Shown: positions 15,918-45,292, numbered from the stretch's first letter. The stretch: 64,000 nucleotides of DNA from an uncultured virus (IMG/VR IMGVR_UViG_2851443076_000002) (IMGVR_UViG_2851443076_000002:1-64000), one strand, 5' to 3'. Program-made: numbers and translations. The notes: generated by a model not told the origin, from the sequence alone.

Positions 15918-15932
15918 AAAACCACACCTTTT

Positions 15933-16283: not shown

Positions 16284-16314
16284 TAATTCATCTCCTTTTA
16301 AAGAAGACGAAATA

Positions 16315-17025: not shown

Positions 17026-17026
17026 A

Positions 17027-18120: not shown

Positions 18121-21100
18121 CGTTGCCCTTTAACTGCATTCCAGACCATCCCGCCAGGTCGCATATCCTGCGCCATCAGCTCCCTGTATTTTTTCTCCAC
18201 AAACGAGCCGATCTGCTGGCCAAACTGCTCAAAACCAGACGGCGCCTGCGTTGAGGTGTTTCCGCCTTCAATCGTGATATAGACTTTTGGCCCTTCCGAC
18301 GCGCCGGCGTTCTGAACACCACCGACAGCGCGTACACCCAGCGAACCATCGCCGGCACGCGTCAGCGGCATGATGGCCTCCGGCCCGGCCTCGCCAAATA
18401 CGCCGGCCCCTTTTGCGAAAGCGAAGAACTGCGGAGAGTCGTAGACCTGGTTGCTGTATGCGCTCAGCGACGGTGAGTCGTAAACGCCGCCTTTGGCGTT
18501 GAACTGGAAGTTACTGGCGGCATTCTGGATCGCCGTCCCCGAGCCTGCGCCCGCAGCGCCCGTGACAACGCTGGTCCCGACGCCCACCACGCCCATAATG
18601 GTTTGCATGACGGAACTGGTGACCAGCGCCTGAGCGGCCATATCAACGAGGTTTTTTATGATCGACTGCGTGAGCGAGGAAAACAGGTCAGCCATGTTCT
18701 CCTTAAAGCTTCTCGTCCGCGTCAGCATGCTCGTCAGGAAGTTGCTTGAGCGCTCATGGGCCGTTTCAAATAACCCGACGGCCAGGCTCTGGAATTCTCC
18801 CTGTGATCGGTATAACTCCAGTGACGTCTGATACTGCGCATCGGCGGATTCTTTCGTCGCCTTCTGCATCAGCATTTCGTACTGTTCTTTGCTGATCGCG
18901 CTGCCCTGGTAGTACGCCTGCAGCAATGCCTGCCGCTGCGCAAGCTGATTGCGCAGCGAGACCAGTGGATCAACTTCGCCGGCGATATCCAGTGCCGGCG
19001 CAGCGATTTCATCGGCATGCGCCTGCAGCAGCTCTTTCGCAGTATCTCTGGCCAGCGTTATTCGTGCGGCCTGGTACTCTTTTTCATCAAGAAGGCGGGC
19101 TTTGAAAAGCTCAGCCAGGTCCCGGCTGGCTTCCTGCTCTTTTCGCAGGGTTTCCTGGGCGGGGGAATACTGCACGGCCAGATCCAGTCGCTGTTTCTGG
19201 TAGTTCTCTGCATTCATTAACAGCACGCGCTGCAGGTCAGCATCACTGGCGCCATTTTTCTTCGCCGCTTCCTGCAGCTCCCTGTTGCTGTCCTTTTCCT
19301 GCAGGTTAATTCTGGCCAGGCTGGATGCATGGGCTTCTTCAATTTGCTGCCGCAGCGTTTTGAACTGGTCGACCTGGGACTTACTGCCTTTCCCCGTGCC
19401 GGTACCGCCATCGCCGCCCCAGGGATTTCCATCTCCGGTCTCTTTGGGGGGCGTGCTTAACGCTCCTTTCAGATCGTCCGTAAGGGAGGTTATTTTTCCC
19501 GATAAACCCAGCTGAGCCAGTGTTTTTGCATCACTGACACGCTTAATGTTTTCCTCGGTTTTGCGGAGTCCCTCGTTAACGCTATCGAGATCCGCCCGCG
19601 CCCGCATCTGGTCTTTTGTCACCCCTTCCAGCTGGCCGAAGGGGTCAAACCCTTTCAGGCTGTCGATACGACTGTCGGCATCCTGAATCTCTTTTATCAG
19701 CTGGTTACGCTGCACGACCTGGTTTTCGTACTTATCCTCCAGGTCGAACTGCTTCACATTTAACTGGTTAAGCGAGAGGCGCATCAGCGCTTCACTGGTT
19801 TCCACTACGGCATCTTTTAAATCAATGGCCGATTGCCGGGCTTCTTTTGCTTGTTGATGGAAATACAGTAATGCAGAGCCAGCCAGCGTCGCCGCGCCAA
19901 CCGGACCACCAACAAAAGCCAGGGCGCCTCTTGCCAGGCCCACCGCAACGGAGGCCGCACGGGCTGATATCGACAATTGCCGGTTTGCCGCTGCCAGTTT
20001 CAGTTTCGCCTGGCTGGCCAGATTGGTTTGCTCAGTTTCCTGTCGAATGAGGCGGGTAAACTCATCCTGGTAACTGATATTCATCCCGTACTGTTTAGCC
20101 GTCCGCTCCATCTGCCGGTAGTGGCCAAACTCGGCGTCGTTCTGTTTCAGGATGGCAGCTGTCGAATCCAGCGTTTTGCGGGCAATATCCGCATCAGCCT
20201 GCGCCCGCGCTTTTACCGCCGCCTGGCTTTCCCGCCAGGCCGCGATATTCTCCCGCAGCCCTGCAGTCAGTTTCGTGGATAACACGGGGATCAGGCTGTA
20301 AAGCGCCACGCTGGAGACGGTGTTGAAATTGTCTGCCAGGCTGTTCAGTGCCTCCGTGGCAACCTGAATCCCGCTGCGGAGTGGCCCGTTACTGCTCTGG
20401 CCGATCTTAATGACCATCCCTTCAAACGCACTGCTCAGCCCCAGCAAATCGCCGTTCAGGTTGTTAACCCTGATGGATGCCTGCTCATGCGCCGTTTTGG
20501 TTCCGGTCAGGGAAGCGGTCAGCTCATCAAGCTTTGAACGGTTCTGGACCAGGATAGACGCCGCATTCAGATTCTCCACGCCAAACAGTTTTACGGCCTG
20601 GGCCGTGGAAAGATTTTTCCCGGAAAGATTGGTCAGCGCCTGGCTGAGACCAACCACGGACGGCTTGAGGCTCTTGTCCGTGCCCTTTTCCAGGTTCAGG
20701 ATGACGTTACGCAGCGCCGTGCCGGCTTCACCGCCTTTAATTTCACGCTCTGCCAGCACCTGAATCGCGGCATTCAGCTGCTCAAAACCAACGCCGGCCT
20801 GTGCGGCTGCGACGCCACCATTTTTAATGGCGGCCGCTGTATCCACAATCTCCGACGACCCGTACTTCGCGCCGGCGGCCAGCACGTTGATATAACGATC
20901 CGCCTCCTGCGCGCTCGCCCCGTACTGGTTTAAGGAGAGCGCCAGCGTTCTGGTCGCATCGGGCAGCGTTGTGCCGGCGGCCTGCGCCAGGATAAGCGCG
21001 CTGTTCGTAGCCTTCTGCAGTCCATCGGACGTTTTTAAAAGCTCCGGTTTAGCCGACGCCATCAGCTTTAGCGCCTCGGCGGCCTGGCTGGCGCTGTATT

Positions 21101-21452
21101 CTGTCGTGCGCCCCATTTCCTGCGCAGCCAGATCCAGAGCTTTCATTTCAGCTGCAGTCGCACCGGTGATGGCCTGCAGGTCTGATAATGCCTGTCCATA
21201 TTGTCTGGACGTGGTGACGATCGTGCCGATGGAAAGGCCGGCTCCTGCCAGCCCCGCCAGCCGGCTGGCCATCCCGGATATCGACAGACCGACCTTCTTA
21301 TAGGCGTCCTCCGTCTTTTTCGCGTCCGCCTGGGCATTACGGTTAAACCGTCGTGACTGGTTCTCCGCATCGCCATACGCTCCCAGCAGCTGGGATTTAA
21401 AACTGGCTGCGTTCAGGTGCAGCCCGACCGCTAAAGATGCGACGTCTGCCAT
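18117..21452 (-). CDS. H: Tail tape measure protein
   Basis: Ala-rich TP901-type core and lambda-H-like C-terminus (GEAGPEAIMPL); ATG overlaps the upstream TAA (TAATG at 21450-21454). Confidence 0.92.
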   Translation of the reverse strand: MADVASLAVGLHLNAASFKSQLLGAYGDAENQSRRFNRNAQADAKKTEDAYKKVGLSISGMASRLAGLAGAGLSIGTIVTTSRQYGQALSDLQAITGATAAEMKALDLAAQEMGRTTEYSASQAAEALKLMASAKPELLKTSDGLQKATNSALILAQAAGTTLPDATRTLALSLNQYGASAQEADRYINVLAAGAKYGSSEIVDTAAAIKNGGVAAAQAGVGFEQLNAAIQVLAEREIKGGEAGTALRNVILNLEKGTDKSLKPSVVGLSQALTNLSGKNLSTAQAVKLFGVENLNAASILVQNRSKLDELTASLTGTKTAHEQASIRVNNLNGDLLGLSSAFEGMVIKIGQSSNGPLRSGIQVATEALNSLADNFNTVSSVALYSLIPVLSTKLTAGLRENIAAWRESQAAVKARAQADADIARKTLDSTAAILKQNDAEFGHYRQMERTAKQYGMNISYQDEFTRLIRQETEQTNLASQAKLKLAAANRQLSISARAASVAVGLARGALAFVGGPVGAATLAGSALLYFHQQAKEARQSAIDLKDAVVETSEALMRLSLNQLNVKQFDLEDKYENQVVQRNQLIKEIQDADSRIDSLKGFDPFGQLEGVTKDQMRARADLDSVNEGLRKTEENIKRVSDAKTLAQLGLSGKITSLTDDLKGALSTPPKETGDGNPWGGDGGTGTGKGSKSQVDQFKTLRQQIEEAHASSLARINLQEKDSNRELQEAAKKNGASDADLQRVLLMNAENYQKQRLDLAVQYSPAQETLRKEQEASRDLAELFKARLLDEKEYQAARITLARDTAKELLQAHADEIAAPALDIAGEVDPLVSLRNQLAQRQALLQAYYQGSAISKEQYEMLMQKATKESADAQYQTSLELYRSQGEFQSLAVGLFETAHERSSNFLTSMLTRTRSFKENMADLFSSLTQSIIKNLVDMAAQALVTSSVMQTIMGVVGVGTSVVTGAAGAGSGTAIQNAASNFQFNAKGGVYDSPSLSAYSNQVYDSPQFFAFAKGAGVFGEAGPEAIMPLTRAGDGSLGVRAVGGVQNAGASEGPKVYITIEGGNTSTQAPSGFEQFGQQIGSFVEKKYRELMAQDMRPGGMVWNAVKGQR

Positions 21453-21695
21453 TACATTAATGCCCTCATGACTGCCGCGCATTCATCATCGACCCGGGAT
21501 GGCGCAGGTGTGGTTTCGGTTGGTGGCGCGTTTTCATCGCCAGGACGGCGGAAAGTGCCCTGTTTCAGGAAGTAGGCTCGCCAGTGGTACAGAGTGTTTG
21601 CCGGCAACGCGGCAATTTTGGATGGGTCAGGCTCGCCCCAGCGGTCGGCCAGCCAGAAAATCAGCTCCAGCCAGGGCGAGTCACTCAGTTTTTTT
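21452..21695 (-). CDS. Tail assembly chaperone gpT-like extension reached by -1 frameshift
   Basis: The -1 frame after GCG GAA AAA AAC TGA reads KKLSDSPWLELIFWLADRWG...VMRALM* without a stop; absent from the ORF track. Confidence 0.8.
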
Positions 21696-27888: not shown

Positions 27889-28067
27889 TATTTACCTCCG
27901 CCATTGCTGACGCCGGAGGAAAAGGCCCGGGTTGTCATATATGACCAGCCCAGACAAATAATCCCTCCTGTTATCAATCCCACTGATGGAGAAATAAGCC
28001 AGGCACCTGCGGATAACAATCCAGCACCAGTGAGGCCGACAATAAAACTCAGAACTGAAATTAGCAT
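27888..28067 (-). CDS. Small two-TM membrane protein between terL and portal (59 aa)
   Basis: MLISVLSFIVGLTGAGLLSAGAWLISPSVGLITGGIICLGWSY...; overlaps both neighbours; absent from the ORF track. Confidence 0.7.
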   Translation of the reverse strand: MLISVLSFIVGLTGAGLLSAGAWLISPSVGLITGGIICLGWSYMTTRAFSSGVSNGGGK

Positions 28068-29157
28068 GCTATATCTTCCTCATCGTATACGGATGTCATC
28101 ACTGAACTGTTAAGCATGGCGCGCCCCAGCCCCATCATTAAACCAACCGCACCATCTATCTTATTCTGCCGCCCTTCTTTCCCGGGACGCACAATATCGT
28201 CACTTCCGGGAAGGTACTGGCCGACGATATTGGAAATACACCAGTTCATGACAGGGTGTCCGTCATGATGGAATCTCCCCGAGATGAGCGCAGCCTCAAT
28301 CTCTCTCATAGGATCACTCATATGGGTAAAATTTTGTCTTATCTCGACAGGTTCAAGCCCCTCTTCCTCGAGCATGTGACGTAATGAAGTCGCGCCATAA
28401 GGGTCAATGGGGCATTGGGCAATTTTTACGGTATTCCGCAGTTTCAGGATCGTTTCAAATATCAGCCTGTAATCAACTTCGCCACCATCGGTCGGGATCA
28501 ACTTACCCTGCCGGACAAAGGACTGATAACGTTCTGCGGTACTTTTCAGCGCGGTCTCCTGCGAGTAAATGGTTTCTTCGGGTGCCCAGAACAGAGGAGA
28601 AACACAGTAAAAATGTGTTATTCCGTCTATTTCACGACGAAAAACTGGAACCACAGCATTGAGGTCAACTTTCGAGGCCAGATCGATACCCAGCCAGCAT
28701 TCTTCCCCTTCAAAATCTGACAACTTAAGATTTTTATCGGCTGCATCCATCCATTTCCTCAGGTCGTAATAAGCTGATTTTGCGCTTACCCAGCGATTGA
28801 AATGCTTGGTCAGAATCTTGTTTGTCTGCCCGGGCGTCGACATACCCAATAATTGTTTAGCCCGGAGAAAATCTGCTTTTACCGAAATGCCATAGTTGGG
28901 GTTTGCCTTGATTAATGCCTCAGGAGTCGTCCAGTCATCATCGTCATCAAGGCCATAAATCAGCCCAAATATGGTTTCATTTTCCTCACCATTACGGGTT
29001 CTCCGCAGGATCTCGACAACCTGAGTACGCTTTTCATAGCAAGGGGATGTAATGTCATAGCCGGCGGTGGTGATGATCAGTGTCATCGGTTGTTCACGAG
29101 CCCCCATACCGGTGGTCATGGTGGTGTAAAGCGCATCAGTAGTATGTTCGTGATATT
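28061..29157 (-). pseudogene. terL: Helper terminase large subunit, 3' part (split by satellite)
   Basis: YHEHTTDALYTTMTTGMGAR...ITTAG...GIDLA...KIDG; continues the 45409-46056 fragment. Confidence 0.93.
29139..29157. repeat. Satellite attachment junction (left in window)
   Basis: GTAGTATGTTCGTGATATT, 17/19 identical to 45413-45431; shared core TCGTGATATT. Confidence 0.9.
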
Positions 29158-29458: not shown

Positions 29459-30334
29459 ATGGTTAAAAATACTGGTAAGGCGTATGAAGAGTTTGTTGGT
29501 ACAATACAACAAAGCTTGATAAATGCAGAAGGCATATCCCATTTAAAAAATATAAAAGTAGAAACCAACAAAATAATAAAAGATAGAAATGGCATCGATA
29601 GACAATTTGACGTGTATTGGGAGTTTAACATTGGTGGCCATGAATATAAAACCGTGATTGAATGCAAGGATTATGCATCGACCATTACGGTTGATAAAAT
29701 CGATGCATTTCTCGGAAAAACAGATGACATCCCAGGATTAAGGCTTATTTATGCAACAAAAACCGGCTACCAAAGTGGAGCAAAAATAAAGGCCGAAAAC
29801 AACAAAATAGATTTACTTATTGTCCGAGAGGCAAATGATTCCGACTGGATGGCACCTGACGGAACACCATTAATTAAGCAACTTCAAATAAATGTCACTG
29901 CAATAACCCCTCCAATAATAAAATATTTCACGCCATCTATTGAACAATCATGGCTAGACTCGCAAAAAGATTTGGATGTCGATACAATAATTCAGAAACT
30001 TAGTAGCATTCCGAGCAATGAATTATTCATTAAAAATTGTACCAATGGCGACTTTTACTCTCTTTATAAATTATCCAGCATGTTGACAGTTAAAATAACT
30101 GACATCAAGTATGGAGAAGGAACTTTTAGAGAAGAATTGAATGACAACTCTTACCTTCAAAGTGAGAACGGCGACTTTCAAATAAAAATCAGTGGTTATG
30201 AACTTGGTTACGAATACCATGAACCCATAACATTCATATCGACAATTGATTATTCAAAAGATTTGCTGGGGATTGTTCAAAACTATCTTTCGGGTTCAAA
30301 ACAAATGATTTTCAAAGATGGAAGAACAAAATAA
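29459..30334 (+). CDS. Mrr-like PD-(D/E)xK restriction endonuclease with uncharacterised C-terminal domain
   Basis: GKAYEEFV...RQFDVY...IECKDY...TGYQSGA; low GC; no adjacent methylase. Confidence 0.8.
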   Translation: MVKNTGKAYEEFVGTIQQSLINAEGISHLKNIKVETNKIIKDRNGIDRQFDVYWEFNIGGHEYKTVIECKDYASTITVDKIDAFLGKTDDIPGLRLIYATKTGYQSGAKIKAENNKIDLLIVREANDSDWMAPDGTPLIKQLQINVTAITPPIIKYFTPSIEQSWLDSQKDLDVDTIIQKLSSIPSNELFIKNCTNGDFYSLYKLSSMLTVKITDIKYGEGTFREELNDNSYLQSENGDFQIKISGYELGYEYHEPITFISTIDYSKDLLGIVQNYLSGSKQMIFKDGRTK

Positions 30335-30374
30335 AAAATCTAAGCCTGAAACACTCCTTTCAGGCTTTTCATTA

Positions 30375-30965
30375 TCACTGCTTATCTTCTGTATAAACCC
30401 CAGCGGAAATAATTGCCCCTCCGATTCGACGCTTTCCGTATAGTAATCCAACTGGATAACCTTGTGATACCGTATTCGTGACGCCACCAAAAGCGTATGA
30501 TGCTTTATTTTCCGGGGATTCCTTGCGAGCCAAGCCTACGGGCTGTGGAGAAAGCATCTGGACTACACCCCCTAGCATCATGGCGCCACCAGCCATCATC
30601 ACATTAACGCCCCACGGTTGATCAAATACAAATGTGGCTACTGTACCAACCGCAACAATAACCGCCCCTAAGATAGTTTGAAGGAAACCAGCTTTTTTGC
30701 TACCAATGATCACCGGTACAATACGGATGGTATCACCTGTTATAGGAAAATTTAAATCGTTCTCACCTATGTTTGTTTTACCCTTGAAAATAGCGAAGGT
30801 TAATCCTTGTTCCTTACTATGAATCATATACTTTTCAAACCCAGGTAGCGTCGCAGATAATGCGATCCCCGCCTCATGCACGGTACTAATTAAACGATGA
30901 TGAACCTTACCAAAAGTTTTACCAAGCACACCGCTCAGTTCAATTCGTGTCATTTTTTCGTTCAT
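30375..30965 (-). CDS. Tail assembly protein I homologue carried by the satellite
   Basis: Full-length match to 15306-15917 (IELSG.LGK.FG, GSKKAG.LQTILGAV, LLYGKRRIGGAIISAG). Confidence 0.88.
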   Translation of the reverse strand: MNEKMTRIELSGVLGKTFGKVHHRLISTVHEAGIALSATLPGFEKYMIHSKEQGLTFAIFKGKTNIGENDLNFPITGDTIRIVPVIIGSKKAGFLQTILGAVIVAVGTVATFVFDQPWGVNVMMAGGAMMLGGVVQMLSPQPVGLARKESPENKASYAFGGVTNTVSQGYPVGLLYGKRRIGGAIISAGVYTEDKQ

Positions 30966-31031: not shown

Positions 31032-32693
31032 TCAAATACCATTAAATGTTGCCAATCGTTCTTTGTGATTGTCACTCATATCAAAAGCAAAATCCTCGTG
31101 CTCAGACTGGAAAGTACCAAACGCCATCAACGCTGATACAGCAGGGTCGATCTTATTAGCGGATTTCTTCTTGTTAGGCTTGATATTGGCGTTGGCGTCA
31201 GACTCCATCACCACGTTACCAATCGCCCAGGACAGAACAGGATCGCCACGATGACGCACAACCCTGCGGTTGACGAATACCTCAAAGGATTTCGCGACCG
31301 GGCTGAACTTGAGATAGGTTTGAGGAAACGGCTCCACATCGAGACCGGCTCCCTGAAGCTGAGTGCGCAGATGCGTGGCGTTCCAGGTATCGAAGCCCAC
31401 CAGCCTGATATTGAAGATTTCAGCATCGCGCAGGATATCGTCACGAATGCGGTCATAGTCGATACAGTCGCCGGGTGTGGTGCGTATCCAGCCCGCTTTC
31501 ACCCACTGGCGGTAGATAGCGCGGTTTTTGTTGGCGACGTTAAGCAACTGCGCTTCCGGCAGATAATGGCGGGTCAGCAGGCGGATCTCCCTGTCGAACG
31601 GGAAAGCGTAGCTCACGCTGGTGATATCGCTGGTTGAGGACAGGTCAAATCCTGCGTAGCACTCCATCCCTGCAAGATCTTCTTCGGTATAGTCGAGCGC
31701 GCAGGCGTCCCATGCACCGGCCCCCATCCACGGAGTGGAGCCCTGACACCAGGTATTGAAACGTTTGGTCAGCATTTCCACCCACTGCGACGGTATGCCC
31801 CGCGCTTTCTGGAGGGTGGACTCCAGTTTAGCCGCGTCAACGGACACATGCAGGTTAGGGTTAGCCTTGATCCACATTTCAGGCTGCTCAACCTCGCTTT
31901 CGTCGTCCAGCTCGTAGATCAGGACAAACAACGAATCGTTACTCTCCTCCCCGGCCAGAATCTGGCAGCAGTAGTCATAATGCTGTTTGCAGGCGGAGAC
32001 AACGTTACTTCCGGCGGTCGTGATGGCGAACAAAATCGCCTCCGGTCGTGCGCCCATCCCCAGCTCAAGCGCGGAATAAACGCCGTTATCGGGGTGAAGG
32101 TGGTATTCATCGACAATCGCCAGGCTGGGGTTAGTCCCCTCAATGGTGGCCGCTTTCGCCGCCAGCGGCTTCAACAGGCTGTTGCTCTTTGGATAAATGA
32201 CCTTGTGCGCCTGAATATTGACGCGCTTTTTTAGCGGTTTTGACAGCAGGCACATCTGGCGGGCATCGTCGAACACGATTCGGGCCTGATCCCGGCTCAC
32301 CGCCGCCGTGTAGATATCCTGCTGGCCCTTCTCCATTACCAGAAACCAGTTAGCCAGCATGGCGGCTACGGTAGATTTGGCATTCTTGCGCGGCACTTCA
32401 ATAAAGGCACTGCTGTACTTCCGGCGGCCTGATTCCCTGACTTTAAATCCCAGCAGGTTAGCAAAGGCAAATTGTTGCCACGGCTCCAGTTCAATAGGCT
32501 GGCCGCGCAGCGGTCCTTTGACGTGAGGACAGAGCCGGGAGAACGCAATAAACCGCTCTACGGTCGCCGTATCGAACTCATAACGGGGGTCACTCAGGTC
32601 TGAAAAGTACCTTTCCACGGCCTGTTTTACGCGCTTACAGGCCGGAATTTCGCCCGTTTTTATCGCGTTTGCGTACTCATCCCAGACGGTCAA
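31032..32693 (-). CDS. terL: Satellite terminase large subunit (intact)
   Basis: Walker A VPRKNAKS, Walker B IVDEYH, ITTAG, GFDLS, KIDP. Confidence 0.93.
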   Translation of the reverse strand: MTVWDEYANAIKTGEIPACKRVKQAVERYFSDLSDPRYEFDTATVERFIAFSRLCPHVKGPLRGQPIELEPWQQFAFANLLGFKVRESGRRKYSSAFIEVPRKNAKSTVAAMLANWFLVMEKGQQDIYTAAVSRDQARIVFDDARQMCLLSKPLKKRVNIQAHKVIYPKSNSLLKPLAAKAATIEGTNPSLAIVDEYHLHPDNGVYSALELGMGARPEAILFAITTAGSNVVSACKQHYDYCCQILAGEESNDSLFVLIYELDDESEVEQPEMWIKANPNLHVSVDAAKLESTLQKARGIPSQWVEMLTKRFNTWCQGSTPWMGAGAWDACALDYTEEDLAGMECYAGFDLSSTSDITSVSYAFPFDREIRLLTRHYLPEAQLLNVANKNRAIYRQWVKAGWIRTTPGDCIDYDRIRDDILRDAEIFNIRLVGFDTWNATHLRTQLQGAGLDVEPFPQTYLKFSPVAKSFEVFVNRRVVRHRGDPVLSWAIGNVVMESDANANIKPNKKKSANKIDPAVSALMAFGTFQSEHEDFAFDMSDNHKERLATFNGI

Positions 32694-33033
32694 GCTCGTC
32701 TTCCTCTTCCGTTTCTACAGGGTTACGACGGCGGCTTACCGGATCAAAGCCCAGCAGCGACGACATTTTAATCATGATTTTTTCAGCATCGGCCTTTGCA
32801 CTCAGCGCCGGATTCCGGCTCTCGCCGCCCTGGCTGTTAATAATGCTGAAACCACGGCTGGCAAGGTCTTCCACGGCTTTGCGGTACAACGAATAGTTGA
32901 CGCAAAAAAGCTCAAGGTTATTCCAGTCGGCGGGAGTCAGATCCCCGCGCTCCGCCAGTTGCTTCGCCTTTGCTTTCCACTGCTGCGCGGCTAGCTCATC
33001 AAGGTAAGCTGGCGGTTTTGGTGGTCTTGCCAT
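32677..33033 (-). CDS. terS: Satellite terminase small subunit (P27 family)
   Basis: MARPPKPPAYLDELA..W...NPA...LGFDPVSR. Confidence 0.9.
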   Translation of the reverse strand: MARPPKPPAYLDELAAQQWKAKAKQLAERGDLTPADWNNLELFCVNYSLYRKAVEDLASRGFSIINSQGGESRNPALSAKADAEKIMIKMSSLLGFDPVSRRRNPVETEEEDELDRLG

Positions 33034-33049
33034 AAAAATTTCTCGTTTC

Positions 33050-33160
33050 CATCGCGTTTTATTTTCAAAAAAATTACCGAGCGTAAAAATTTGAGGGGGC
33101 AGGTGGTTCCTCGCTGAGAGGGGTTTGTCCTGAAAACCTCCCCCACCCCGTCCATTCGGC
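33050..33160 (-). promoter_or_regulatory. Probable satellite cos/packaging-initiation region
   Basis: Non-coding gap upstream of terS with a G-rich block (GGGGTGGGGGAGG) and T-tracts, as in the helper gap. Confidence 0.5.
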
Positions 33161-33163
33161 CTG

Positions 33164-33316
33164 TCAGCGGTTGCGAAAGCATTCCATGAGCTCCCGGTCA
33201 CGCTGGCTCATGCGCTTTGCTGCGGGCTTCTTATGCACTCTCAGTCTGGCTGGTTGCCATGACTCACGCTGCTTTATCAGCCCACTAATCAGCCGCTGCT
33301 GTTCCTGCTCAGTCAT
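33164..33316 (-). CDS. Small hypothetical protein in the packaging module
   Basis: MTEQEQQRLISGL...; overlaps the HNH stop. Confidence 0.55.
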   Translation of the reverse strand: MTEQEQQRLISGLIKQRESWQPARLRVHKKPAAKRMSQRDRELMECFRNR

Positions 33317-33752
33317 TGTTTGCCTCATAGATCCAGTCGGTGCGATGACGTGCTGCTTCTTCCTGCTCACGGAACTTACCGGCTTTACGCTGCTGCTTCG
33401 TCACCGGGTCTGTTGTGGTTGTCTTCCGTCCATGACAGGCAGCGCATAACGACTGGTGATTACTGGCGGGCCAGAACAGCACATCGGCCTCACCCTCGAT
33501 AGGGATGATGTGATCGACGATAGTTGCCGATGTATAGACGTCAGCCTTAAGACAATGGACACACAGCGGATTAGCTTTCAGAAAATGACGACGATATTCG
33601 CCCCAGCGGTTGGAGTAACCACGCTCTGTTCGCGTACCTCTTCGGCTGTCGCTTTGTCGGCGGGCATCCCGCTTATGCTCGTCACACTTGCCAGACTTCA
33701 CCCGTTTATTACATCCCGGCTCAGTGCATCGGCGTAGTGGTTGCCACGGCAT
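33309..33752 (-). CDS. Satellite HNH endonuclease (terminase cofactor type)
   Basis: CxxPGC, LCVHC, VDHIIP, NHQSLCAACH. Confidence 0.9.
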   Translation of the reverse strand: MPWQPLRRCTEPGCNKRVKSGKCDEHKRDARRQSDSRRGTRTERGYSNRWGEYRRHFLKANPLCVHCLKADVYTSATIVDHIIPIEGEADVLFWPASNHQSLCAACHGRKTTTTDPVTKQQRKAGKFREQEEAARHRTDWIYEANND

Positions 33753-34045
33753 CAGTACACCCCCACATCACGATAGACAGACCATAACGCAGAGACAGCC
33801 ATCGGTATCTCTTTGGCGTCAGTATCACCAATCATCGTGCGGTACTCGTACAGCTGAGATACGTACATCAGACAGCCAATCTTGATAGCTGGCGTAAACT
33901 CCAGCCCGTTATCAAACCGCTTGCCGATATGCTTCTGGCAAACCTCCAGCGCCGCATCGATGTATGCCTGTATCAGCGTGTCTTCATAATCATCATCAAT
34001 ACGGCAATGCAGCTTTGCTTCTTCCAGACCAATTAACTCATTCAT
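33752..34045 (-). CDS. Satellite head-tail connector (gp6-like)
   Basis: LEEAKLHCRIDDDYED.LI..YI.AA...LYEYR. Confidence 0.88.
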   Translation of the reverse strand: MNELIGLEEAKLHCRIDDDYEDTLIQAYIDAALEVCQKHIGKRFDNGLEFTPAIKIGCLMYVSQLYEYRTMIGDTDAKEIPMAVSALWSVYRDVGVY

Positions 34046-34376
34046 TGAAAATGCCTCCCTTGCACAGCAGCTCAAGCCGGGTGTGATCCACATCAGGAAT
34101 GACGGCCACAATGCCGTAAACCTGCCCCCGGACATTTGGCGAGCGGTACAAAATGCGGTTTGCGGTGGTGATATCGTCGCGGTAGCGCGTCCAGATTCGT
34201 ACAGTGGCTTCGGAGTAGAGCGCCCCGGAAGACATACGCTCACGCCCACTTATAGCGCGGATTTCAGCCCAGACGGTGGCAAGGTCAGACCACACATAGA
34301 TAACCTGCCCCATCTGATCACGGTGAGATTCTGACTTCTGAAAAGTGACGCGGCGTTTCATCTTTCCGGCTCTCAT
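34038..34376 (-). CDS. Satellite head closure protein
   Basis: MRAGKMKRRVTFQ...TVWAEIRAISGRE. Confidence 0.88.
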   Translation of the reverse strand: MRAGKMKRRVTFQKSESHRDQMGQVIYVWSDLATVWAEIRAISGRERMSSGALYSEATVRIWTRYRDDITTANRILYRSPNVRGQVYGIVAVIPDVDHTRLELLCKGGIFNE

Positions 34377-35608
34377 TCGTCACCGTCCTTGTTGTCCTTA
34401 CTGACCTTCACTTCCTGCTTCCATGCCTGACTGTATTCGTCGCCACCTTCACGCGGTGGCATCCCTTCGCGTTCGCGGGCTTCGTTCGGGTTCATGATCC
34501 CGTTCTTGATACCGCGCTCATAAGTTGCGTAACGTTCGGTAGGAGTGGCTCGAAGAAGATCGGCGGAGTCGAACTCCACCTGATAACGGATTCCGGGTAC
34601 AGGCGATGCCACCAGCAACGCGGATTTAATCTGCTGCTCAAAGTTCGCCAGCCACGGGCGCATTGTCATGGTAAGAAAGGCGCGGCTCGCCTCACTAAAA
34701 TTGCTGTAGGTGCTGTTGCTGTATTCCTGCAGGAAGATGGGAGAAACGTTAAACATGCGGGCAATATCTTCAATGGTGAAGCGACGGGAAGCCAGCCACT
34801 CAGCATCCTGATTGCTCATGCCAAGCTGCTTATAGTCCATGCCACCTTCAAGGATCGGCGTTTTCCCGGCGTTTCTGGCACCTTTGTAGCGTTCCAGTGC
34901 GTCCAGAGCTTGTTTGCCCTTTAAGCTGTCGAGCCATTCAGCAGTAGTGACCACGCCAGCCGCCATCATGCCATCTTTCATAATGCTGGCACCGTGGCGC
35001 TGCTGAGCGAGGCCCAGCCCCAACGCCTCACGGCAGACAGTGATCGGCGAACGCCCCAGAAAGCCATCGTCGGTGGAGTAACGCAGGTGCAGCATCTCTT
35101 CCTGCAAGTAGGTGCGCACAGCCCCCGTAAACGGTTCAGTAACGGTGTATTTGTACTTATGCTGGCCGATACGTTCGGGAACAACCGCCCCCGGCGCATA
35201 CGGATGCAGGGATTGCGGCTGGCCGTCACGGCCCCACTGGATCACCGCATAGGCGTTACCATTCAGCAGGCAGTGGCGCATCATCGTGCGTTTAAACTGG
35301 TAAGGCGTCTGGCAGTCGTTAGGCTGTTCGTTCAGGAGAAAATCCACCGGGTGATTGCTCAGCCACTCCCGCGCCTCTCGTCCTTTATAATTTCGTACCC
35401 GATAGAGGTAACAGGGCATTGTCGCCACAGCTTCACTGATAACGGAAACAGCATTCATCACCGCCGGCAGAGATTCCGCAGTACCCGCAGACACATACTC
35501 GCCTGATCCGGTATTTGGAATCCCTGCCATCGCCAGAAACTCATCAATGGTCATGCTGCGCTGCTCGGAGGGTTCAGACTTACGGCCAAACGGCCAGATA
35601 TTCCACAT
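34373..35608 (-). CDS. Satellite portal protein
   Basis: GNAYA, DGFLGRSPI, IARMFNVSP, PNEARERE. Confidence 0.93.
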   Translation of the reverse strand: MWNIWPFGRKSEPSEQRSMTIDEFLAMAGIPNTGSGEYVSAGTAESLPAVMNAVSVISEAVATMPCYLYRVRNYKGREAREWLSNHPVDFLLNEQPNDCQTPYQFKRTMMRHCLLNGNAYAVIQWGRDGQPQSLHPYAPGAVVPERIGQHKYKYTVTEPFTGAVRTYLQEEMLHLRYSTDDGFLGRSPITVCREALGLGLAQQRHGASIMKDGMMAAGVVTTAEWLDSLKGKQALDALERYKGARNAGKTPILEGGMDYKQLGMSNQDAEWLASRRFTIEDIARMFNVSPIFLQEYSNSTYSNFSEASRAFLTMTMRPWLANFEQQIKSALLVASPVPGIRYQVEFDSADLLRATPTERYATYERGIKNGIMNPNEAREREGMPPREGGDEYSQAWKQEVKVSKDNKDGDE

Positions 35609-35609
35609 A

Positions 35610-36170
35610 TTAAAGCCCCGCTAATTCGGCCCAGCGGCGACGATTATCGCCAGCGCGACGCAGTTCAGGATGTTGGGAGAAAAGCGAACGGTGCGCGATT
35701 TCCACACCAGATTCAGGATAAGCAGGCATAGACGTAACTGTGATTTCCCGCAGGTCGGCAGCTATTACAGTACGGAGGTACGGAGACTGGCCGATATCCC
35801 ACGCCTCTTTCAGCGCACGGAAACCAAAACTCATGCCGGAAATATCCCCACGTTCCACCAGCTCCAGCACATCATTCCCAAGCTGGGTATTCGGCGGGGT
35901 CAGCTCGAAGCGCAGCCCGGTATCGTCCTCAGACAGCACCAGCGTGCCGGATTTAGTGCGCCCCAGCAGTTGGGTATAGTTATGCTCGTAAAGTGCACGC
36001 ACATCGCTACCGGATGCCAGACTGTCTTTAAACGCCCCAGGCGCGAACTGCTCACGGAATTCATCCCAGATAACTTCTGACAGGCTGTTCCAGCGCACCG
36101 CATAGCCCACCAGCTTTTTGTTGCTGGCGCTCAGCTCAGAGGTTCGGATTTCAAAATCGATTGTTTTCAT
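35610..36170 (-). CDS. Satellite HK97-family prohead protease
   Basis: GYAVRWN, LYEHN, GMSFGF, EITVTSMPAY. Confidence 0.92.
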   Translation of the reverse strand: MKTIDFEIRTSELSASNKKLVGYAVRWNSLSEVIWDEFREQFAPGAFKDSLASGSDVRALYEHNYTQLLGRTKSGTLVLSEDDTGLRFELTPPNTQLGNDVLELVERGDISGMSFGFRALKEAWDIGQSPYLRTVIAADLREITVTSMPAYPESGVEIAHRSLFSQHPELRRAGDNRRRWAELAGL

Positions 36171-36220: not shown

Positions 36221-37387
36221 TCAGGAACCGGAGCCGGAAAGCTCAAGCACCTTGATGGCGCAGGAGTCCACCACGCCGCCGCCCAGGTATTTATCGGTAT
36301 GCACCTTGTAGAAACCCGGTTCGGTGATATTGTCAGGACGGGTGCGCACGCCAGTGGTGTGATCGACAATGAAGTAACCACGCTTAAAATCGCCTACCGC
36401 CAGAAATGCTTCTCCCGGAGCCGCATCGGGCATAGTTTCCAGATACTGAACCGGACGGCCCAGCAGCGTATCAGGAGAGTCAGCGACCAGACGATCGCGC
36501 CAGATATAGTCCCCGTTATCGTTTTTCAGCTTCTGAAGCGTGGCCGCAGTATTCGAGTTCATCACCCATACGGCGTTCTTGCGGTATTTCGCTTTCAGCT
36601 TGTATAGCAGGTCGATCAAACCATCTGAGTTAACAGCAGTCATTTCCATCTTCTCCAGCGTGCCGAACGGACGGGTTTTATCGCTGGTGGCCGCACGCGG
36701 ATAGGACAGGAACCCTTTGGATTTTTTATCACCGTCGCCGTTCACAAAGTCGGTTTCTTCAGTAGCGCTGAAGGTTTCGGAGATTTCAGAAGATAACCAA
36801 CCCAGAACATCCACCTCGGAAAAATCGAGGATCTCCTGAGTGGTTTTCGGGTATGCATAGATCGGGCTGAGTTTGATATCGACACGTTCCATTCTCGGTG
36901 TGGTAGTTTCGGCACGCGCTTCACCTTCTGCCCCATGCTTAACGGCAGCACCGCCCACAGATACCAGTTTCTGGTATTCGTTGGTTTTGGTTGTCTTCAC
37001 TGTCGCGATAGATCGCATCACGCTGTCATCCTGCAACTGGCGCATGATCTCTTTGTCCAGCTCAGGGATAACGGTATAGCCGCCATCAGCCTGCACCAGC
37101 GTGGAGAGAGAACGGGTATCACCGGTCATGATGTAGTGCCGCAGTTCGTCGTTGCTTACTGGCTCAGCTTCAACGGAAGTACCAGGCAGATTGCGCTCAT
37201 CGTTGGCAACGGCTTCAAGGCGGGTAATTTCCACTTCAAGCGTATCAGCCCGGGCGCGGAGTTCGTCGAACTGTTTACCCTCTTCATCATTCAGGCTGCG
37301 CTTCTCGCTGTCGGCTTTGTCCAGCATGGAACGCATCTGGGTTTTGAGAGCGGCTTTCTGCTGGCGTAATTCGAGTAATTTTTTCAT
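36221..37387 (-). CDS. Satellite major capsid protein (HK97 fold)
   Basis: MKKLLELRQ delta domain, DGGYTVIPE, LLGRPV, GDFKRGY. Confidence 0.93.
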   Translation of the reverse strand: MKKLLELRQQKAALKTQMRSMLDKADSEKRSLNDEEGKQFDELRARADTLEVEITRLEAVANDERNLPGTSVEAEPVSNDELRHYIMTGDTRSLSTLVQADGGYTVIPELDKEIMRQLQDDSVMRSIATVKTTKTNEYQKLVSVGGAAVKHGAEGEARAETTTPRMERVDIKLSPIYAYPKTTQEILDFSEVDVLGWLSSEISETFSATEETDFVNGDGDKKSKGFLSYPRAATSDKTRPFGTLEKMEMTAVNSDGLIDLLYKLKAKYRKNAVWVMNSNTAATLQKLKNDNGDYIWRDRLVADSPDTLLGRPVQYLETMPDAAPGEAFLAVGDFKRGYFIVDHTTGVRTRPDNITEPGFYKVHTDKYLGGGVVDSCAIKVLELSGSGS

Positions 37388-37409
37388 GAGTGGTTTCCGT
37401 AACAATTAA

Positions 37410-38996: not shown

Positions 38997-40799
38997 TTAC
39001 TCTACCCCAGCACTTTCAGAATTATTGTTACATGACGGCATCCAGTCGTCTGAGTCGTCGTGTAGCGTAACGTTTGACCTGATACCGTGCTTGGTTTTCC
39101 GCTTTTCGTACTTCTTCCCGTACTCGGCCATTGCGCCTGGCATATCGGTACCAAACCGCATCAGAGAGACTGGCTTACTCAGACCATTGGCCCGCATGTA
39201 TGCCAGATAGGCGTGATACAGATATTTGCGCGGGCTGAATGGCACAATCTCCGCATTGCCGATAAACATTCCATCGCAAACTACCGACGCCATCAGATAA
39301 CCGCAGAAATCCACCAGCGAATCCCCTTCTCGCTTGATAGCCAGTGCTTCTTCTGACTTCTGCTGTTCGTGCAGCAGCTGTTTGGCTTCGTCCTGGCTTG
39401 CAAAACGGGTCAGCAGATGGCGAATGATGACGGCCAGCTCACCTTCTATCTTTTCAGCCAACATCGTATCGCGCTCGTTTTCCGGAACTATTTCCGTGAA
39501 GTTGAATATAACTCGGCGGCGCGATATCCCACCACTCCGGTCGCTGAAGGTCATTGCATTGTTGTTGACCGCCAGCACCACAGCCTGAATACGGGTTGAA
39601 TATGGCGCTTTATGCTTAGGATCGATAGAAACCTTGTCACCGCCGGTAATTGCCTTAATCCCGGCGCCATCGCCAGCATAGCGGGTCATATCCGGCATGA
39701 TGATAAGTGAGTACCCAACCACCAGCGCTCTATCTCTGGCATCCTCCAGCGCTTTCATGCTGGCTGATACAGTATTGGCCTTGCCCGCAAGCATGGTGCA
39801 TATTTCCGCCATCACACTTTTACCGCTACCGCCGGGGCCCGTAACCTCAAGGAACAGCTGCCAGTCGTACCGGTTCGCCAGCACCATAAATAGCGCCGCC
39901 AGCACACGGTCTGTTTTGCGGTCGTTGTTGGCCACGGAACGGCGTAACCACTTCCAGAAGTTCGGCGCATGGCTGGCCAGTGTCTCCCCCTCTGCTGGTG
40001 GACTGAATGGCAGTTCACTGGCAATCAACAACCAGTCGGTTTTGCTGTGCTCCCTGAACTGCCCCGTCCGGGTATCAAATACGCCGTTGCTGAAGCCAAT
40101 GAGGTTGCGGGCTGTTACGCCCATCACCGGCAGACTCAGCTTCATGGTTTCCACCGCCGATTTGATGGCGTTCTGCGAATAGGCTACCTCAGCATCAATG
40201 TAAATCTGCGCCATTGCCCGTTGCAGCTCTTTATCCGGGAGTGGATTCCAGATCGCACCGTTATAGTGGTGAACCATGTCCGAATCAGCATGAATAGCCA
40301 GGTCTCCATCGTAATGGGCCAGCAGCACTTGCCCGCGCTGGCTGGCCCCCATCTGATTAAGAGCCGGGCTAACTTCATCATGCGCTGGTTCTCTTTTCGT
40401 CACTGGCAGATTTACTACTGTGCTTTTTCCTTCCCTAATCCGATTAAGATGATCGCGCCAGTCCTCCGGATGAGTATCGGGAATACCCTTATAAAGTTTT
40501 GCCTCCTGTACCCCAGCCTGTGCCAGCTTGGCACCAATGGCACTAATCATCGACGTCTCGATATCGCCAGCCAGATATACCCGTGCAGCTCTGCGGCCAT
40601 CATCGATAATGCGCAGGTTGTCCAGTTCCTCCAGTTGCCGCGGGCCAAGATAAACAGGAGGCGTGGTATCTTCCGCGATCTGCTTACCTAACCCCTCTTC
40701 CCAGCCTTTGGCATGACTCCACGCGTCGGCACCCGCGAAAATAATCGCTTCTGTAAACTTGTCTTTCGGCAGCGCCTTTACGTTAGGTGCATTTTTCAC
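38997..40799 (-). CDS. P4-family primase/SF3 helicase replication protein
   Basis: D5_N-like FSNGVFD, Walker A GPGGSGKS, KAITGGD, NN..., RR. Confidence 0.9.
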   Translation of the reverse strand: MKNAPNVKALPKDKFTEAIIFAGADAWSHAKGWEEGLGKQIAEDTTPPVYLGPRQLEELDNLRIIDDGRRAARVYLAGDIETSMISAIGAKLAQAGVQEAKLYKGIPDTHPEDWRDHLNRIREGKSTVVNLPVTKREPAHDEVSPALNQMGASQRGQVLLAHYDGDLAIHADSDMVHHYNGAIWNPLPDKELQRAMAQIYIDAEVAYSQNAIKSAVETMKLSLPVMGVTARNLIGFSNGVFDTRTGQFREHSKTDWLLIASELPFSPPAEGETLASHAPNFWKWLRRSVANNDRKTDRVLAALFMVLANRYDWQLFLEVTGPGGSGKSVMAEICTMLAGKANTVSASMKALEDARDRALVVGYSLIIMPDMTRYAGDGAGIKAITGGDKVSIDPKHKAPYSTRIQAVVLAVNNNAMTFSDRSGGISRRRVIFNFTEIVPENERDTMLAEKIEGELAVIIRHLLTRFASQDEAKQLLHEQQKSEEALAIKREGDSLVDFCGYLMASVVCDGMFIGNAEIVPFSPRKYLYHAYLAYMRANGLSKPVSLMRFGTDMPGAMAEYGKKYEKRKTKHGIRSNVTLHDDSDDWMPSCNNNSESAGVE

Positions 40800-43736: not shown

Positions 43737-43798
43737 CAGCAGAAAATCCTATAAAAAAACCCGCCTGAAGAAGCGGGTGTGATTTGAAAAGTGTCGGT

Positions 43799-45245: not shown

Positions 45246-45270
45246 CTTCTCACTCTCTGCACACACAAAA

Positions 45271-45292
45271 GCAATACACACTGCAATACACA
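45271..45292. promoter_or_regulatory. Putative integrase arm-type sites upstream of int
   Basis: GCAATACACA-ct-GCAATACACA. Confidence 0.7.

What the first reader, a model, noticed from the sequence alone, without database searches (positions are those of the whole stretch)
30375..30965. A tail-less satellite carries its own intact tail-tip protein I
Seen: a full-length gpI homologue directly after the satellite terL and co-oriented with it. It is clearly diverged from the helper copy (15306-15917) in the N-terminal and central hydrophobic parts but near-identical at the C-terminus, and it is the only tail gene in the element. Established: cf-PICIs are defined by lacking tail genes; lambda gpI has a ubiquitin-like N-terminal fold and works with gpK (JAB) and gpJ in tip assembly; some defences act on tail assembly. 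Inference: it may be a dominant-negative decoy against non-helper phages, a way to widen the set of usable tails, or a bypass of tail-targeting defences. I know of no description of this.
Basis: partly seen in the sequence, partly recalled or inferred. Interest (0 to 1): 0.78.

Follow-up and report, generated by a model that had tools for sequence, protein, structure and literature searches.

The report
Phage satellite carrying tail-tip gene I
A small phage parasite that builds its own heads but steals tails really does carry one intact tail-tip gene, and this turns out to be a common, catalogued but never-explained habit of such parasites rather than a one-off.

Summary
Window 30375-30965 (- strand) is an intact 196-aa homologue of lambda tail-tip protein gpI. 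It is the last gene of the satellite's late operon, directly after terL, and it is 65% identical to the helper's copy.

The 16.3-kb capsid-forming satellite is inserted inside the helper prophage's own terL. This makes it a helper-embedded PICI, a kind described in 2023.

The gene is not sporadic. It follows terL in 9 of 33 related satellite loci. In the supplement of Tommasini et al. 2023 I counted 98 satellite gene profiles (the paper gives 476 in all) that list Lambda_tail_I. Ten of these show this element's layout, ...TerL, Lambda_tail_I, -Mrr_cat. A 2016 paper noted the same gene in a Pseudomonas satellite. No text I could search discusses its function.

Satellite alleles are intact and under purifying selection (dN/dS 0.06-0.23). 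They are polyphyletic among phage alleles and mosaic. Some sister satellites carry a tape-measure gene in the same slot.

Best reading: a working tip plug and membrane-insertion subunit that co-assembles into helper tails. Function is untested. Interest is moderate.

The parts
30375..30965 (-). Satellite gpI gene (196 aa). It has an N-terminal Lambda_tail_I (ubiquitin-like) domain, two hydrophobic helices and a conserved C-terminal region.
30342..30367 (.). 10-bp-stem hairpin with T-runs on both strands, 8 nt after the gpI stop. A terminator-like site shared by the late operon and the convergent Mrr-like gene.
   Evidence: (consensus scan only)
31032..32693 (-). Satellite large terminase (ATPase and nuclease domains).
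32677..33201 (-). Satellite small terminase (Terminase_4).
33309..33752 (-). Satellite HNH endonuclease.
33752..34249 (-). Head-tail adaptor (Phage_connect_1, phrog_40). Homology covers residues 68-165, so the true start is probably further in.
34038..34376 (-). Head closure protein (Phage_HCP, phrog_25).
34373..35608 (-). Satellite portal.
35610..36170 (-). Satellite prohead protease (S78).
36221..37405 (-). Satellite major capsid protein.
38997..40799 (-). Satellite primase/D5-type replication protein.
43497..44038 (-). Two AlpA genes (43799-44038 and 43497-43736).
44010..45344 (-). Satellite tyrosine integrase.
45416..45431 (.). attL core AATATCACGAGCATAC (read on the - strand), inside the helper terL.
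29142..29157 (.). attR core AATATCACGAACATAC (read on the - strand). It matches the attL core at 15 of 16 bases.
29459..30334 (+). Mrr_cat restriction-endonuclease-like cargo gene, convergent with gpI. GC 0.34. No PADLOC or PHROG hit.
45409..46056 (-). Helper TerL N-terminal piece (ATPase domain, profile positions 2-134 of 178).
28061..29119 (-). Helper TerL C-terminal piece (nuclease domain). Joining the two pieces at the att core reads ...[24 protein letters not shown]...
15306..15917 (-). Helper gpI, in the usual place between K and J.
4026..21482 (-). Helper tail-tip module: J (3746 aa), I, a lipoprotein add-on gene, K, L, M and the tape measure.

Best explanation
The gene is a working gpI. 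In phage lambda, gpI is the trimeric plug of the tail tip. Its C-terminal strands thread through the hub of gpJ and hold the end of the tape-measure protein. Its two hydrophobic helices are released towards the host outer membrane when the tail opens.

Here the gene is the last gene of the late (head and packaging) operon of a capsid-forming satellite. That satellite is lodged inside its helper prophage's terL.

Proposed mechanism (inferred, not shown):
1. When the helper is induced, the satellite makes its own gpI alongside the helper's.
2. The conserved C-terminus lets the satellite protein enter helper-built tail tips, three copies per tail.
3. The tails that join satellite heads therefore carry a plug and membrane-entry module specified by the satellite.
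4. The likeliest gain is control of, or insurance for, the DNA-entry step into the next cell.

Shown here: identity, intactness, position, recurrence, selection and allele exchange.
Inferred: co-assembly into tails and the benefit.
For: Family membership:
- PHROG 32 at E 3.6e-71.
- Lambda gpI chains at E 2e-30 over chain residues 14-211.
- 65% identity to the helper gpI.

gpI is a virion part in lambda: three copies sit in the tip, bound to gpJ hub domains and to the tape-measure C-terminus. Its helices H1/H2 are proposed to enter the outer membrane (passages of PMC11101478, and PMC12617516).

The gene is the last one of the operon:
- No terminator-like site lies between terL and gpI.
- A strong hairpin lies 8 nt after its stop.

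Recurrence:
- gpI lies directly after terL in 9 of 33 satellite loci.
- In one more locus (L037) it lies beside a terL remnant.
- 98 satellite profiles, of 476 by the paper's count, hold it in the 2023 supplement.
- It is present in E. coli fis-site satellites.

Selection:
- All 11 satellite copies are full length, 196-205 aa.
- dN/dS is 0.06 for L004/L005, with low pN in all three parts of the protein.

Interchangeability: prophages L040 and L038 share with the helper 93-99% identical tape-measure C-termini, 96-100% identical M, L and K, and 94% identical J N-termini. Yet their gpI is only 71-72% identical to the helper's, and L038's is 81% identical to the satellite's. Different gpI alleles therefore serve the same partner proteins.

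The same slot holds a full tape-measure homologue, which is gpI's binding partner:
- In locus L010 it matches phrog_2854 at E 2e-176.
- In at least 5 profiles of the supplement, TMP_2 follows TerL.
Against: - No experiment or proteomic data show the satellite protein in any tail.
- Expression is not shown. The gene lies on contigs of RNA libraries, but such contigs cannot prove transcription.
- 24 of the 33 related satellite loci lack it, so it is not essential for the satellite way of life.
- The satellite allele is neither specially like nor specially unlike the co-resident prophage's allele. Ranks are 18, 56, 28, 20 and 3 of 72. No matching or avoidance rule supports a particular benefit.
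- A tip subunit cannot tell satellite heads from helper heads, so any change to tails also reaches helper virions.
- Low GC (0.44 against 0.55 for terL) and the place next to cargo genes would also fit an accessory gene.
Confidence: 0.5

Rival explanations
1. Spare part or dose booster. The satellite supplies extra gpI, or in sister elements an extra tape measure. This would raise the number of tail initiators. It would also keep tail assembly going when the helper's own copy is limiting, defective or blocked by a resident tail-assembly inhibitor. No change of entry properties is involved.
For: Satellite heads must compete with helper heads for tails.

Defences that stop tail assembly by recognising tail parts exist:
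- Tai acts through the J C-terminus (PMC11364771, sections read).
- Tab acts through the tape-measure C-terminus (PMC10884400, passages).

Only gpI or a tape measure occupy the slot, never L or M. [quoted passage not shown] Full-length conservation fits a working subunit.
Against: - No defence is known to target gpI. PADLOC has no model that hits it or its neighbours.
- A pure dose effect does not explain why alleles are so diverse and repeatedly replaced.
- Nothing shows that gpI is limiting.
Confidence: 0.2
2. Gene expressed in the lysogen (moron-like). It would act as a membrane protein against incoming phages, for example by disturbing the entry channel of tails that use a related plug. 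On this reading it belongs with the defence cargo at the satellite's end and not with the late genes.
For: - It sits at the cargo end, next to an Mrr-like nuclease, and has lower GC than the late genes.
- In sister satellites the DNA after terL, or after gpI where it is present, holds defence-like genes: AAA_15/AbiEii-like, AIPR and Abi_C.
- In RNA-library contigs of runs X6/X7 the gene lies on its own 700-nt contig, 30337-31036, whose ends fall at the hairpin and at the terL stop. This is a weak hint only, and X6 and X7 show identical figures, so they may be one data set.
- The Pseudomonas helper AH14a carries a second copy of the gene in its early region on the other strand (PMC4936722).
Against: - In most satellites only about 14-30 nt separate terL from gpI, both on the same strand. 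This leaves no room for an own promoter outside terL.
- The promoter scan found nothing above what shuffled sequence gives.
- The J-binding C-terminus and the N-terminal domain are both kept under purifying selection. A membrane decoy would not need them.
- Contigs cannot show starts, ends or levels of an RNA.
Confidence: 0.12
3. Neutral passenger. The gene is a leftover of 'late gene capture' from helper prophages, with no role for the satellite.
For: - Late-gene capture by PICIs is described (PMC10111431, sections read).
- Alleles are nested among phage alleles.
- The gene is missing from most relatives.
- A decayed copy is reported in an earlier scan note (e1-258097, unchecked).
Against: - The same single gene sits in the same slot in three different kinds of late zone: after TerL, after CLP_protease/DUF1441, and after Phage_cap_E/HDPD/AlpA.
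- No L or M gene is ever found in these satellites.
- All 11 copies are intact and dN/dS is as low as 0.06 between two satellite copies.
- A TAC_4-like gene follows it only in satellites: 0 of 149 phage-context loci.
Confidence: 0.08
4. Poison subunit or dominant-negative decoy. The satellite protein would spoil the tails of the helper or of competing phages.
For: - PICIs commonly interfere with helpers, and tail-assembly interference by PICI genes is known (Tai; PMC11364771).
- The protein keeps the conserved C-terminus needed to enter a tip.
Against: - The satellite needs working tails.
- All domains are conserved and none is truncated or degenerate.
- Natural phages with the same partner proteins use equally divergent alleles, so divergence of this size does not by itself poison a tip.
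Confidence: 0.06

Closest known systems
Helper-embedded PICIs at site A:Terminase_1:132 (Klebsiella 16-kb elements; Tommasini, Mageeney & Williams 2023, PMC10111431)
   Same: The gene order matches the published profiles: Int, AlpA, AlpA..., Primase..., capsid, S78 protease, portal, head closure, connector, HNH, Terminase_4, TerL, Lambda_tail_I, -Mrr_cat. The element is inserted in the helper's terL in the same orientation. The break falls near position 134 of the TerL_ATPase profile.
   Different: Nothing structural differs. The paper's text never mentions the gpI gene (0 occurrences) and gives it no function. I did not place this integrase in their tree.
Capsid-forming PICIs (EcCIEDL933 type; Alqurainy et al. 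2023, preprint 10.1101/2022.09.08.507074)
   Same: It has its own capsid, protease, portal, adaptor, connector, HNH, TerS and TerL, and depends on helper tails. The terL is 70-97% identical to chromosomal relatives, most of which lie beside fis.
   Different: That family was defined as lacking tail genes and as using attachment sites never used by prophages. This element has one tail gene and sits inside a prophage gene.
Phage lambda gpI (tail tip assembly protein I; PDB 8IYK, 8XCG, 9E7M)
   Same: Homologous over nearly the full length. Same parts: N-terminal Lambda_tail_I domain, two hydrophobic helices and a conserved C-terminal region.
   Different: It is not placed between K and J. No K, L, M or J gene is in the same element. 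It is encoded by a satellite.
TAPI gene of Pseudomonas satellite phiAH14b (PMC4936722, 2016)
   Same: A satellite whose only similarity to its helper is a tail assembly protein I gene, 71-74% identical to the helper copies.
   Different: The satellite is of another type (P4-like primase/helicase, uses helper capsids) in another host. The gene sits mid-element next to a lipoprotein gene. No function was proposed there either.
Tail-assembly inhibitors Tai (PICIs, prophages) and Tab (Pseudomonas prophages)
   Same: They are genes carried by mobile elements that act on tail assembly. Their targets, the J C-terminus and the tape-measure C-terminus, are neighbours of gpI in the tip.
   Different: I found no sign of sequence relatedness and made no direct comparison; I did not have their sequences. 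They block tails, whereas this is a normal tail subunit. Tai lies next to pri, not after terL.

Membership tests
Lambda gpI / tail tip assembly protein I (PF06805, phrog_32) | Significant sequence match to family models | tested here: met
   phrog_32 at E 3.6e-71. A profile of the satellite copies hits lambda gpI chains at E 2e-30. Pfam alone falls short: 22.3 bits against a 23.8-bit cut-off.
Lambda gpI / tail tip assembly protein I (PF06805, phrog_32) | Domain plan: N-terminal ubiquitin-like domain, two hydrophobic helices, conserved C-terminal strands that bind the gpJ hub | tested here: met
   The alignment covers all three parts. There are 45 invariant columns, mostly C-terminal. The match to chain 8iyk_I spans residues 14-211. 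The helices were read from the sequence. No fold was predicted.
Lambda gpI / tail tip assembly protein I (PF06805, phrog_32) | Genomic place between tail genes K and J | tested here: not met
   The gene follows terL. No K, L, M or J gene is in the element. In the two samples of 80 gpI relatives, 71 and 78 loci have the K-I-J context.
Lambda gpI / tail tip assembly protein I (PF06805, phrog_32) | Presence in assembled tail tips | not testable with these tools
   This needs particle proteomics or cryo-EM.
Capsid-forming PICI | int, AlpA and primase plus its own capsid, portal, protease, head-tail connectors, HNH, TerS and TerL | tested here: met
Capsid-forming PICI | Lacks phage tail and lysis genes (as defined in the 2022 preprint, and in SatelliteFinder) | tested here: not met
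   One tail gene (gpI) lies inside the att borders. No lysis gene was found.
Capsid-forming PICI | Attachment site never occupied by prophages | tested here: not met
   The site lies inside a prophage gene, the helper terL.
Helper-embedded PICI (HE-PICI) | [quoted passage not shown] | tested here: met
   The 16-nt cores at 45416-45431 and 29142-29157 match at 15 of 16 bases. The joined frame reads through the Walker B region, DEYHEH. All genes are on the - strand.
Helper-embedded PICI (HE-PICI) | Four ordered zones: Integration, Bro, Replication, Late | tested here: met
   int and 2 AlpA genes come first. Small genes follow, including a repressor-like one (phrog_1743), then the primase, then the late genes. 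The Bro-network domains themselves were not tested.
Helper-embedded PICI (HE-PICI) | Integrase in the HE-PICI clade | not tested
   Only the Pfam domains of the integrase were seen. No tree was built with the published integrases.
Tai / Tab tail-assembly inhibitors | Homology to Tai or Tab, and blocking of tail assembly | not tested
   Their sequences were not at hand. The gene is a clear gpI, and PADLOC gave no hit.

The most novel reading that the evidence does not exclude
Enterobacterial phage satellites do not simply steal tails. A large minority refit them with their own lumen and ejection proteins, the tip plug gpI or the tape measure, which are the first proteins to enter the next host.

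This would give the satellite control over DNA entry. For example, it could get into cells that already carry a helper-type prophage and exclude that phage's own tails. A helper-embedded satellite needs exactly this, because its integration site exists only inside such prophages.

The hypervariable gpI cassette in otherwise near-identical phage tail tips would then mark an unrecognised arms race at the entry step.
Probability: 0.2. Interest if true: 0.8.

Novelty: new member of a known kind. Interest (0 to 1): 0.5.

Why it matters
Capsid-forming satellites are described, and searched for by software, as elements without tail genes. SatelliteFinder treats tail profiles as forbidden. It first rejected 73 cfPICIs for a single nearby tail or holin gene and then counted that gene as lying outside the element (PMC10085698).

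This work shows that one specific tail-tip gene lies inside the element borders, is selected, and is widespread. About a fifth of the catalogued satellite gene profiles have it. The neighbouring tail genes are never captured.

If the protein enters helper tails, satellites shape the entry machinery of the particles that spread them. That would bear on their unusually broad transfer and on phage exclusion. If it does not, the gene is a new kind of satellite accessory function.

Either way, a simple deletion in a laboratory E. coli satellite would answer a question nobody seems to have asked in print.

Tried and rejected
Near-identical DNA in E. coli:
- Megablast of 29100-31100 against 5,426 complete E. 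coli genomes gave no match, so this allele-plus-Mrr arrangement is not an E. coli one.

Recent gene conversion from the helper, as the cause of the near-identical C-terminus:
- Rejected. Nucleotide identity there is only 69-82%.

A single satellite-specific gpI clade:
- Rejected by the tree (quick search, SH-aLRT support only). One satellite-only group of 5 exists (L037, L001, L002, L004, L005; support 89).

Allele matching or avoidance between a satellite and the co-resident prophage:
- No pattern in 5 pairs. Only prophage copies among the best 80 of 267 loci were available.

Expression from public RNA runs:
- All four runs laid are contigs.
- X1/X2 carry the whole region on long contigs.
- X6/X7 carry gpI on a separate 700-nt contig, while parts of terL, terS and HNH are without cover. 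Lack of cover and contig depth cannot be used as evidence, and DNA carry-over in the libraries cannot be excluded.

Excess change in gpI against its closest relative (L122):
- gpI has 5 differences in 591 nt, 3 of them replacements. terL has 1 in 1662 nt, but HNH-terS has 14 in about 800 nt. The variation is patchy and nothing can be concluded.

Defence libraries:
- PADLOC gave no hit for gpI, the Mrr-like gene, the TAC_4-like gene or the K/I lipoprotein.

Promoter in front of gpI:
- Consensus matches do not exceed what shuffles give.

Not run:
- No complex prediction of satellite gpI with helper J. A pass would rest on likeness to solved lambda tips and would not have changed my odds.

Literature for a described function:
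- Searches, and term look-ups inside papers, found none.
- Subscription journals, including the printed Cell Host & Microbe and Cell versions of the cf-PICI papers, and bioRxiv supplements were not searchable.

Full report
1. What is there

On the - strand, ATG 30965 to the stop at 30375-30377 encodes a 196-aa protein. It is 65% identical (132/202, E 8e-92) to the protein of 15306-15917, which lies between the K and J genes of a lambda-like tail module in the same window.

Family evidence:
- PHROG 32 'tail assembly protein' matches at E 3.6e-71.
- A profile of satellite copies finds the lambda gpI chains of solved tail tips (8iyk_I and others) at E 2e-30, and two closer solved homologues at E 4e-80 and 7e-61.
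- Pfam Lambda_tail_I scores 22.3 bits, just under its cut-off of 23.8.
- In the phage collection the best matches are gpI of N15/phiKO2-like and Enterobacter phages, at about 70-72%.

- N-terminus: 47-60% identical.
- Hydrophobic centre: 27-40% identical.
- Last ~60 residues: 87-100% identical.

The C-terminus is nearly invariant across the whole family. Its nucleotide identity to the helper copy is only 69-82%. That is protein-level constraint, not a recent copy.

2. The element

All on the - strand:
- integrase 44010-45344
- two AlpA genes, 43799-44038 and 43497-43736
- a repressor-like gene and small unknown genes
- D5-type primase 38997-40799
- capsid 36221-37405
- S78 protease
- portal
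- head closure protein
- adaptor
- HNH
- TerS
- TerL 31032-32693
- gpI

No other tail gene was found.

The gpI gene starts 66 nt after the terL stop, with no terminator-like site between them. A 10-bp-stem hairpin with T-runs on both strands (30342-30367) follows its stop. It is shared with a convergent Mrr_cat-like gene at 29459-30334. gpI is thus the last gene of the late operon.

3. The satellite is inside the helper's terL

The helper prophage's large terminase is in two pieces:
- the ATPase part at 45409-46056 (profile positions 2-134 of 178)
- the nuclease part at 28061-29119

A 16-nt core, AATATCACGA(G/A)CATAC, stands at both junctions: 45416-45431 and 29142-29157. Joining the pieces there gives the continuous frame ...[24 protein letters not shown]..., which parallels the satellite's own TerL.

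This is a helper-embedded PICI of about 16.3 kb, as described by Tommasini, Mageeney & Williams 2023 (PMC10111431; outline, sections 17, 20 and 21, and supplement read). [quoted passage not shown] That is this element's layout.

The window comes from a 70-kb provirus record. A second provirus record (L122) holds the same composite. Its TerL, Mrr-like protein and helper TerL piece are identical at the protein level, and its gpI differs at 3 residues.

4. How common is it

I fetched 37 loci with relatives of the satellite TerL.

Rows dropped before counting:
- L030-L032, which are ordinary phages with 26-30% TerL identity
- L024, where the contig ends inside terL

Of the remaining 33 loci:
- 9 have gpI directly after terL: L001-L005, L014, L025, L026 and L034 (L034 is cut by the contig end).
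- One more (L037) has it beside a terL remnant.

Of the 15 loci with full-length TerL at 80% identity or more, 7 have it. All 15 are Enterobacterales except L015 (Aeromonas). Of the 8 loci from Gilliamella, Frischella and Pasteurellaceae, none has it.

Most of these elements abut fis, the known PICI site.

In two samples of gpI relatives, the phage context K-I-J dominates:
- Genomes: 71 of 80 are phage context. Seven are satellite context; six of these are places already fetched, and L108 is new. Two are unclear.
- Viral records: 78 of 80 are phage context and 2 are satellite context.

In the 2023 supplement I counted 107 visible occurrences of Lambda_tail_I. Of these, 104 fall in 98 satellite profile rows. 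The paper counts 476 unique satellite profiles.
- 57 of the 98 rows are capsid-forming elements with the gene right after TerL_nuclease.
- 41 rows are other PICIs, with the gene after CLP_protease/DUF1441 or after Phage_cap_E/HDPD/AlpA.
- Cells longer than 400 characters were cut in the copy I read, so prophage rows are undercounted.

[quoted passage not shown] The capture is therefore specific to this gene.

RefSeq annotates 'tail assembly protein' between terL and fis in the two E. coli satellites I opened.

5. Is it described

- The main text of PMC10111431 never mentions the gene.
- The cf-PICI preprint defines the family as lacking tail genes.
- SatelliteFinder forbids tail profiles. It recovered 73 cfPICIs that were first rejected for a single nearby tail or holin gene, by treating that gene as outside the element (PMC10085698).
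- A 2016 paper on Pseudomonas satellite phiAH14b did note a tail assembly protein I gene, 71-74% identical to two helper copies, as the only similarity between satellite and helper. It offered no function (PMC4936722).
- Six full-text searches and look-ups inside the cf-PICI papers found no functional account.

The statement that no description exists is therefore wrong for the presence of the gene. As far as I could search, it is right for its function.

6. Evolution

- All 11 satellite copies are intact, 196-205 aa.
- On a tree of 85 gpI proteins, the 11 satellite copies need 7 label changes, at least 6 of them forced by well-supported branches. They are polyphyletic.
- The window's copy is sister to the gpI of prophage L038 (81% identical).
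- A Xenorhabdus satellite groups with Morganella prophages, and a Pectobacterium one with Serratia and Xenorhabdus prophages.
- One satellite-only group of five exists.
- Within that group, dN/dS is 0.06 for L004/L005, with low pN in the N-terminal, central and C-terminal parts.
- The gene is mosaic. L001/L002 share the N-terminal domain (pS 0.11) but not the rest (pS 0.6-0.7). L002/L004 show the reverse pattern.
- The adjacent terL is much less diverged in the same pairs: pS 0.16-0.28 against 0.40-0.72. The slot is kept while the allele is exchanged.

Phages show the same cassette behaviour. Prophages L040 and L038 have tape-measure C-termini 99% and 93% identical to the helper's. Their M, L and K are 96-100% identical and their J N-termini 94% identical. 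Yet their gpI is only 71-72% identical to the helper's. Alleles as different as the satellite's work with the same partners.

7. What gpI does in lambda

Passages of PMC11101478 and PMC12617516 say the following:
- Three gpI copies sit in the tip.
- C-terminal strands pass through gaps in the gpJ hub.
- A plug closes the tube and holds the C-terminal fragment of the tape measure.
- On receptor binding the plug opens.
- The two hydrophobic helices are proposed to insert into the outer membrane.

The conserved part of the satellite protein is thus the part that fixes it in the tip. The variable parts are those that leave the tip and meet the next host.

The idea that the N-terminal domain is ubiquitin-like and cut by the JAB domain of K is recalled from Iyer et al. 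2006. I saw that paper only in a search listing.

8. A telling neighbour

In K. pneumoniae locus L010, the slot after terL holds a 765-aa tape-measure homologue instead (phrog_2854, E 2e-176). It lies between terL and fis. The supplement shows TerL_nuclease followed by TMP_2 in at least 5 fis profiles, and by PhageMin_Tail in one. Only the first 9 places of each term were shown.

gpI and the tape-measure C-terminus are binding partners in the tip lumen.

A small gene with a borderline Phage_TAC_4 match follows gpI in six satellite loci (L001, L005, L014, L026, L092, L108). It is frameshifted in L001, and L092 is counted as a satellite on this evidence only. It occurs in 0 of the 149 phage-context loci.

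9. Reading

I conclude that this is a working gpI that satellites keep on purpose. Most likely it co-assembles into helper-made tail tips.

Why this helps the satellite is open. I favour control of, or insurance for, the entry step. Rivals are a spare part or dose effect, a lysogen-expressed exclusion gene, a passenger, and a poison subunit.

Evidence against my reading:
- Most relatives lack the gene.
- An earlier scan note (e1-258097, unchecked) reports a decayed copy elsewhere.
- There is no allele matching with the co-resident prophage.
- Expression is unproven.

On expression: the gene is present on contigs of RNA libraries from two or three studies, but contigs cannot show transcription.

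10. Verdict

- The object is a member of a catalogued kind of satellite.
- The function of its tail gene is an open question that can be tested cheaply.

Noticed in passing
28061-29157 and 45409-46056: The satellite is integrated inside the helper prophage's large terminase gene at the Walker B (DEYHEH) codons. A 16-nt att core stands at both ends. Excision at the cores would restore an intact terL. The helper cannot package until the satellite leaves.
   Followed up: yes
L010:7674-9971: In a K. pneumoniae fis-site capsid-forming satellite, the slot after terL holds a 765-aa tape-measure homologue (phrog_2854, E 2e-176) instead of gpI. The 2023 supplement lists further 'TerL_nuclease,TMP_2' satellites.
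   Followed up: partly
L005:8272-8622, L026:1051-1515, L014, L108, L092; split in L001:8275-8621: A small gene with a borderline Phage_TAC_4 match follows gpI in satellites. It was found in none of the 149 phage-context gpI loci. In L001 it is in two frames. A small conserved gene ('H.2' of the 2023 paper) follows it near the att end, and is also present in satellites without gpI.
   Followed up: partly
25604-26592: The helper's S49-type head protease is read as two overlapping ORFs (25918-26592 and 25604-25921). Each matches part of the Peptidase_S49 profile. The gene may be frameshifted.
   Followed up: no
15933-16283: A lipoprotein-like gene of 116 codons (GC 0.38, phrog_914, function unknown) sits in the add-on slot between helper K and I. 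Earlier scan notes describe this slot as a known place for add-on ('moron') genes.
   Followed up: partly
4026-15266: The helper's central tail fibre J is very long, at 3746 aa.
   Followed up: no
29459-30334: The Mrr_cat-like cargo gene is convergent with gpI. It has GC 0.34 and no PADLOC or PHROG hit. A gene of the same family name ends many satellite profiles in the 2023 supplement.
   Followed up: partly
37676-38152: An AT-rich (GC 0.38) 158-codon ORF lies on the opposite strand between the satellite capsid gene and the replication genes. It has no Pfam, PHROG or PADLOC hit.
   Followed up: no
L038 (record titled Limoniibacter endophyticus): This contig carries a prophage tail module 94-100% identical in protein to the helper here and to a K. 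pneumoniae prophage (L040). That is odd for the named organism and may be a foreign contig in that assembly.
   Followed up: no
runs X6 and X7 on 28000-38000: The two RNA runs, filed under different studies and years, give identical contigs and depths. They are probably one data set filed twice.
   Followed up: no
L022:7665-8123, L023:8121-8594: In Pasteurellaceae relatives, an HK97-gp10-like gene (a head-tail joining or tail-completion family) lies just after terL in L022 and about 460 nt after it in L023. These are weak Pfam hits.
   Followed up: no
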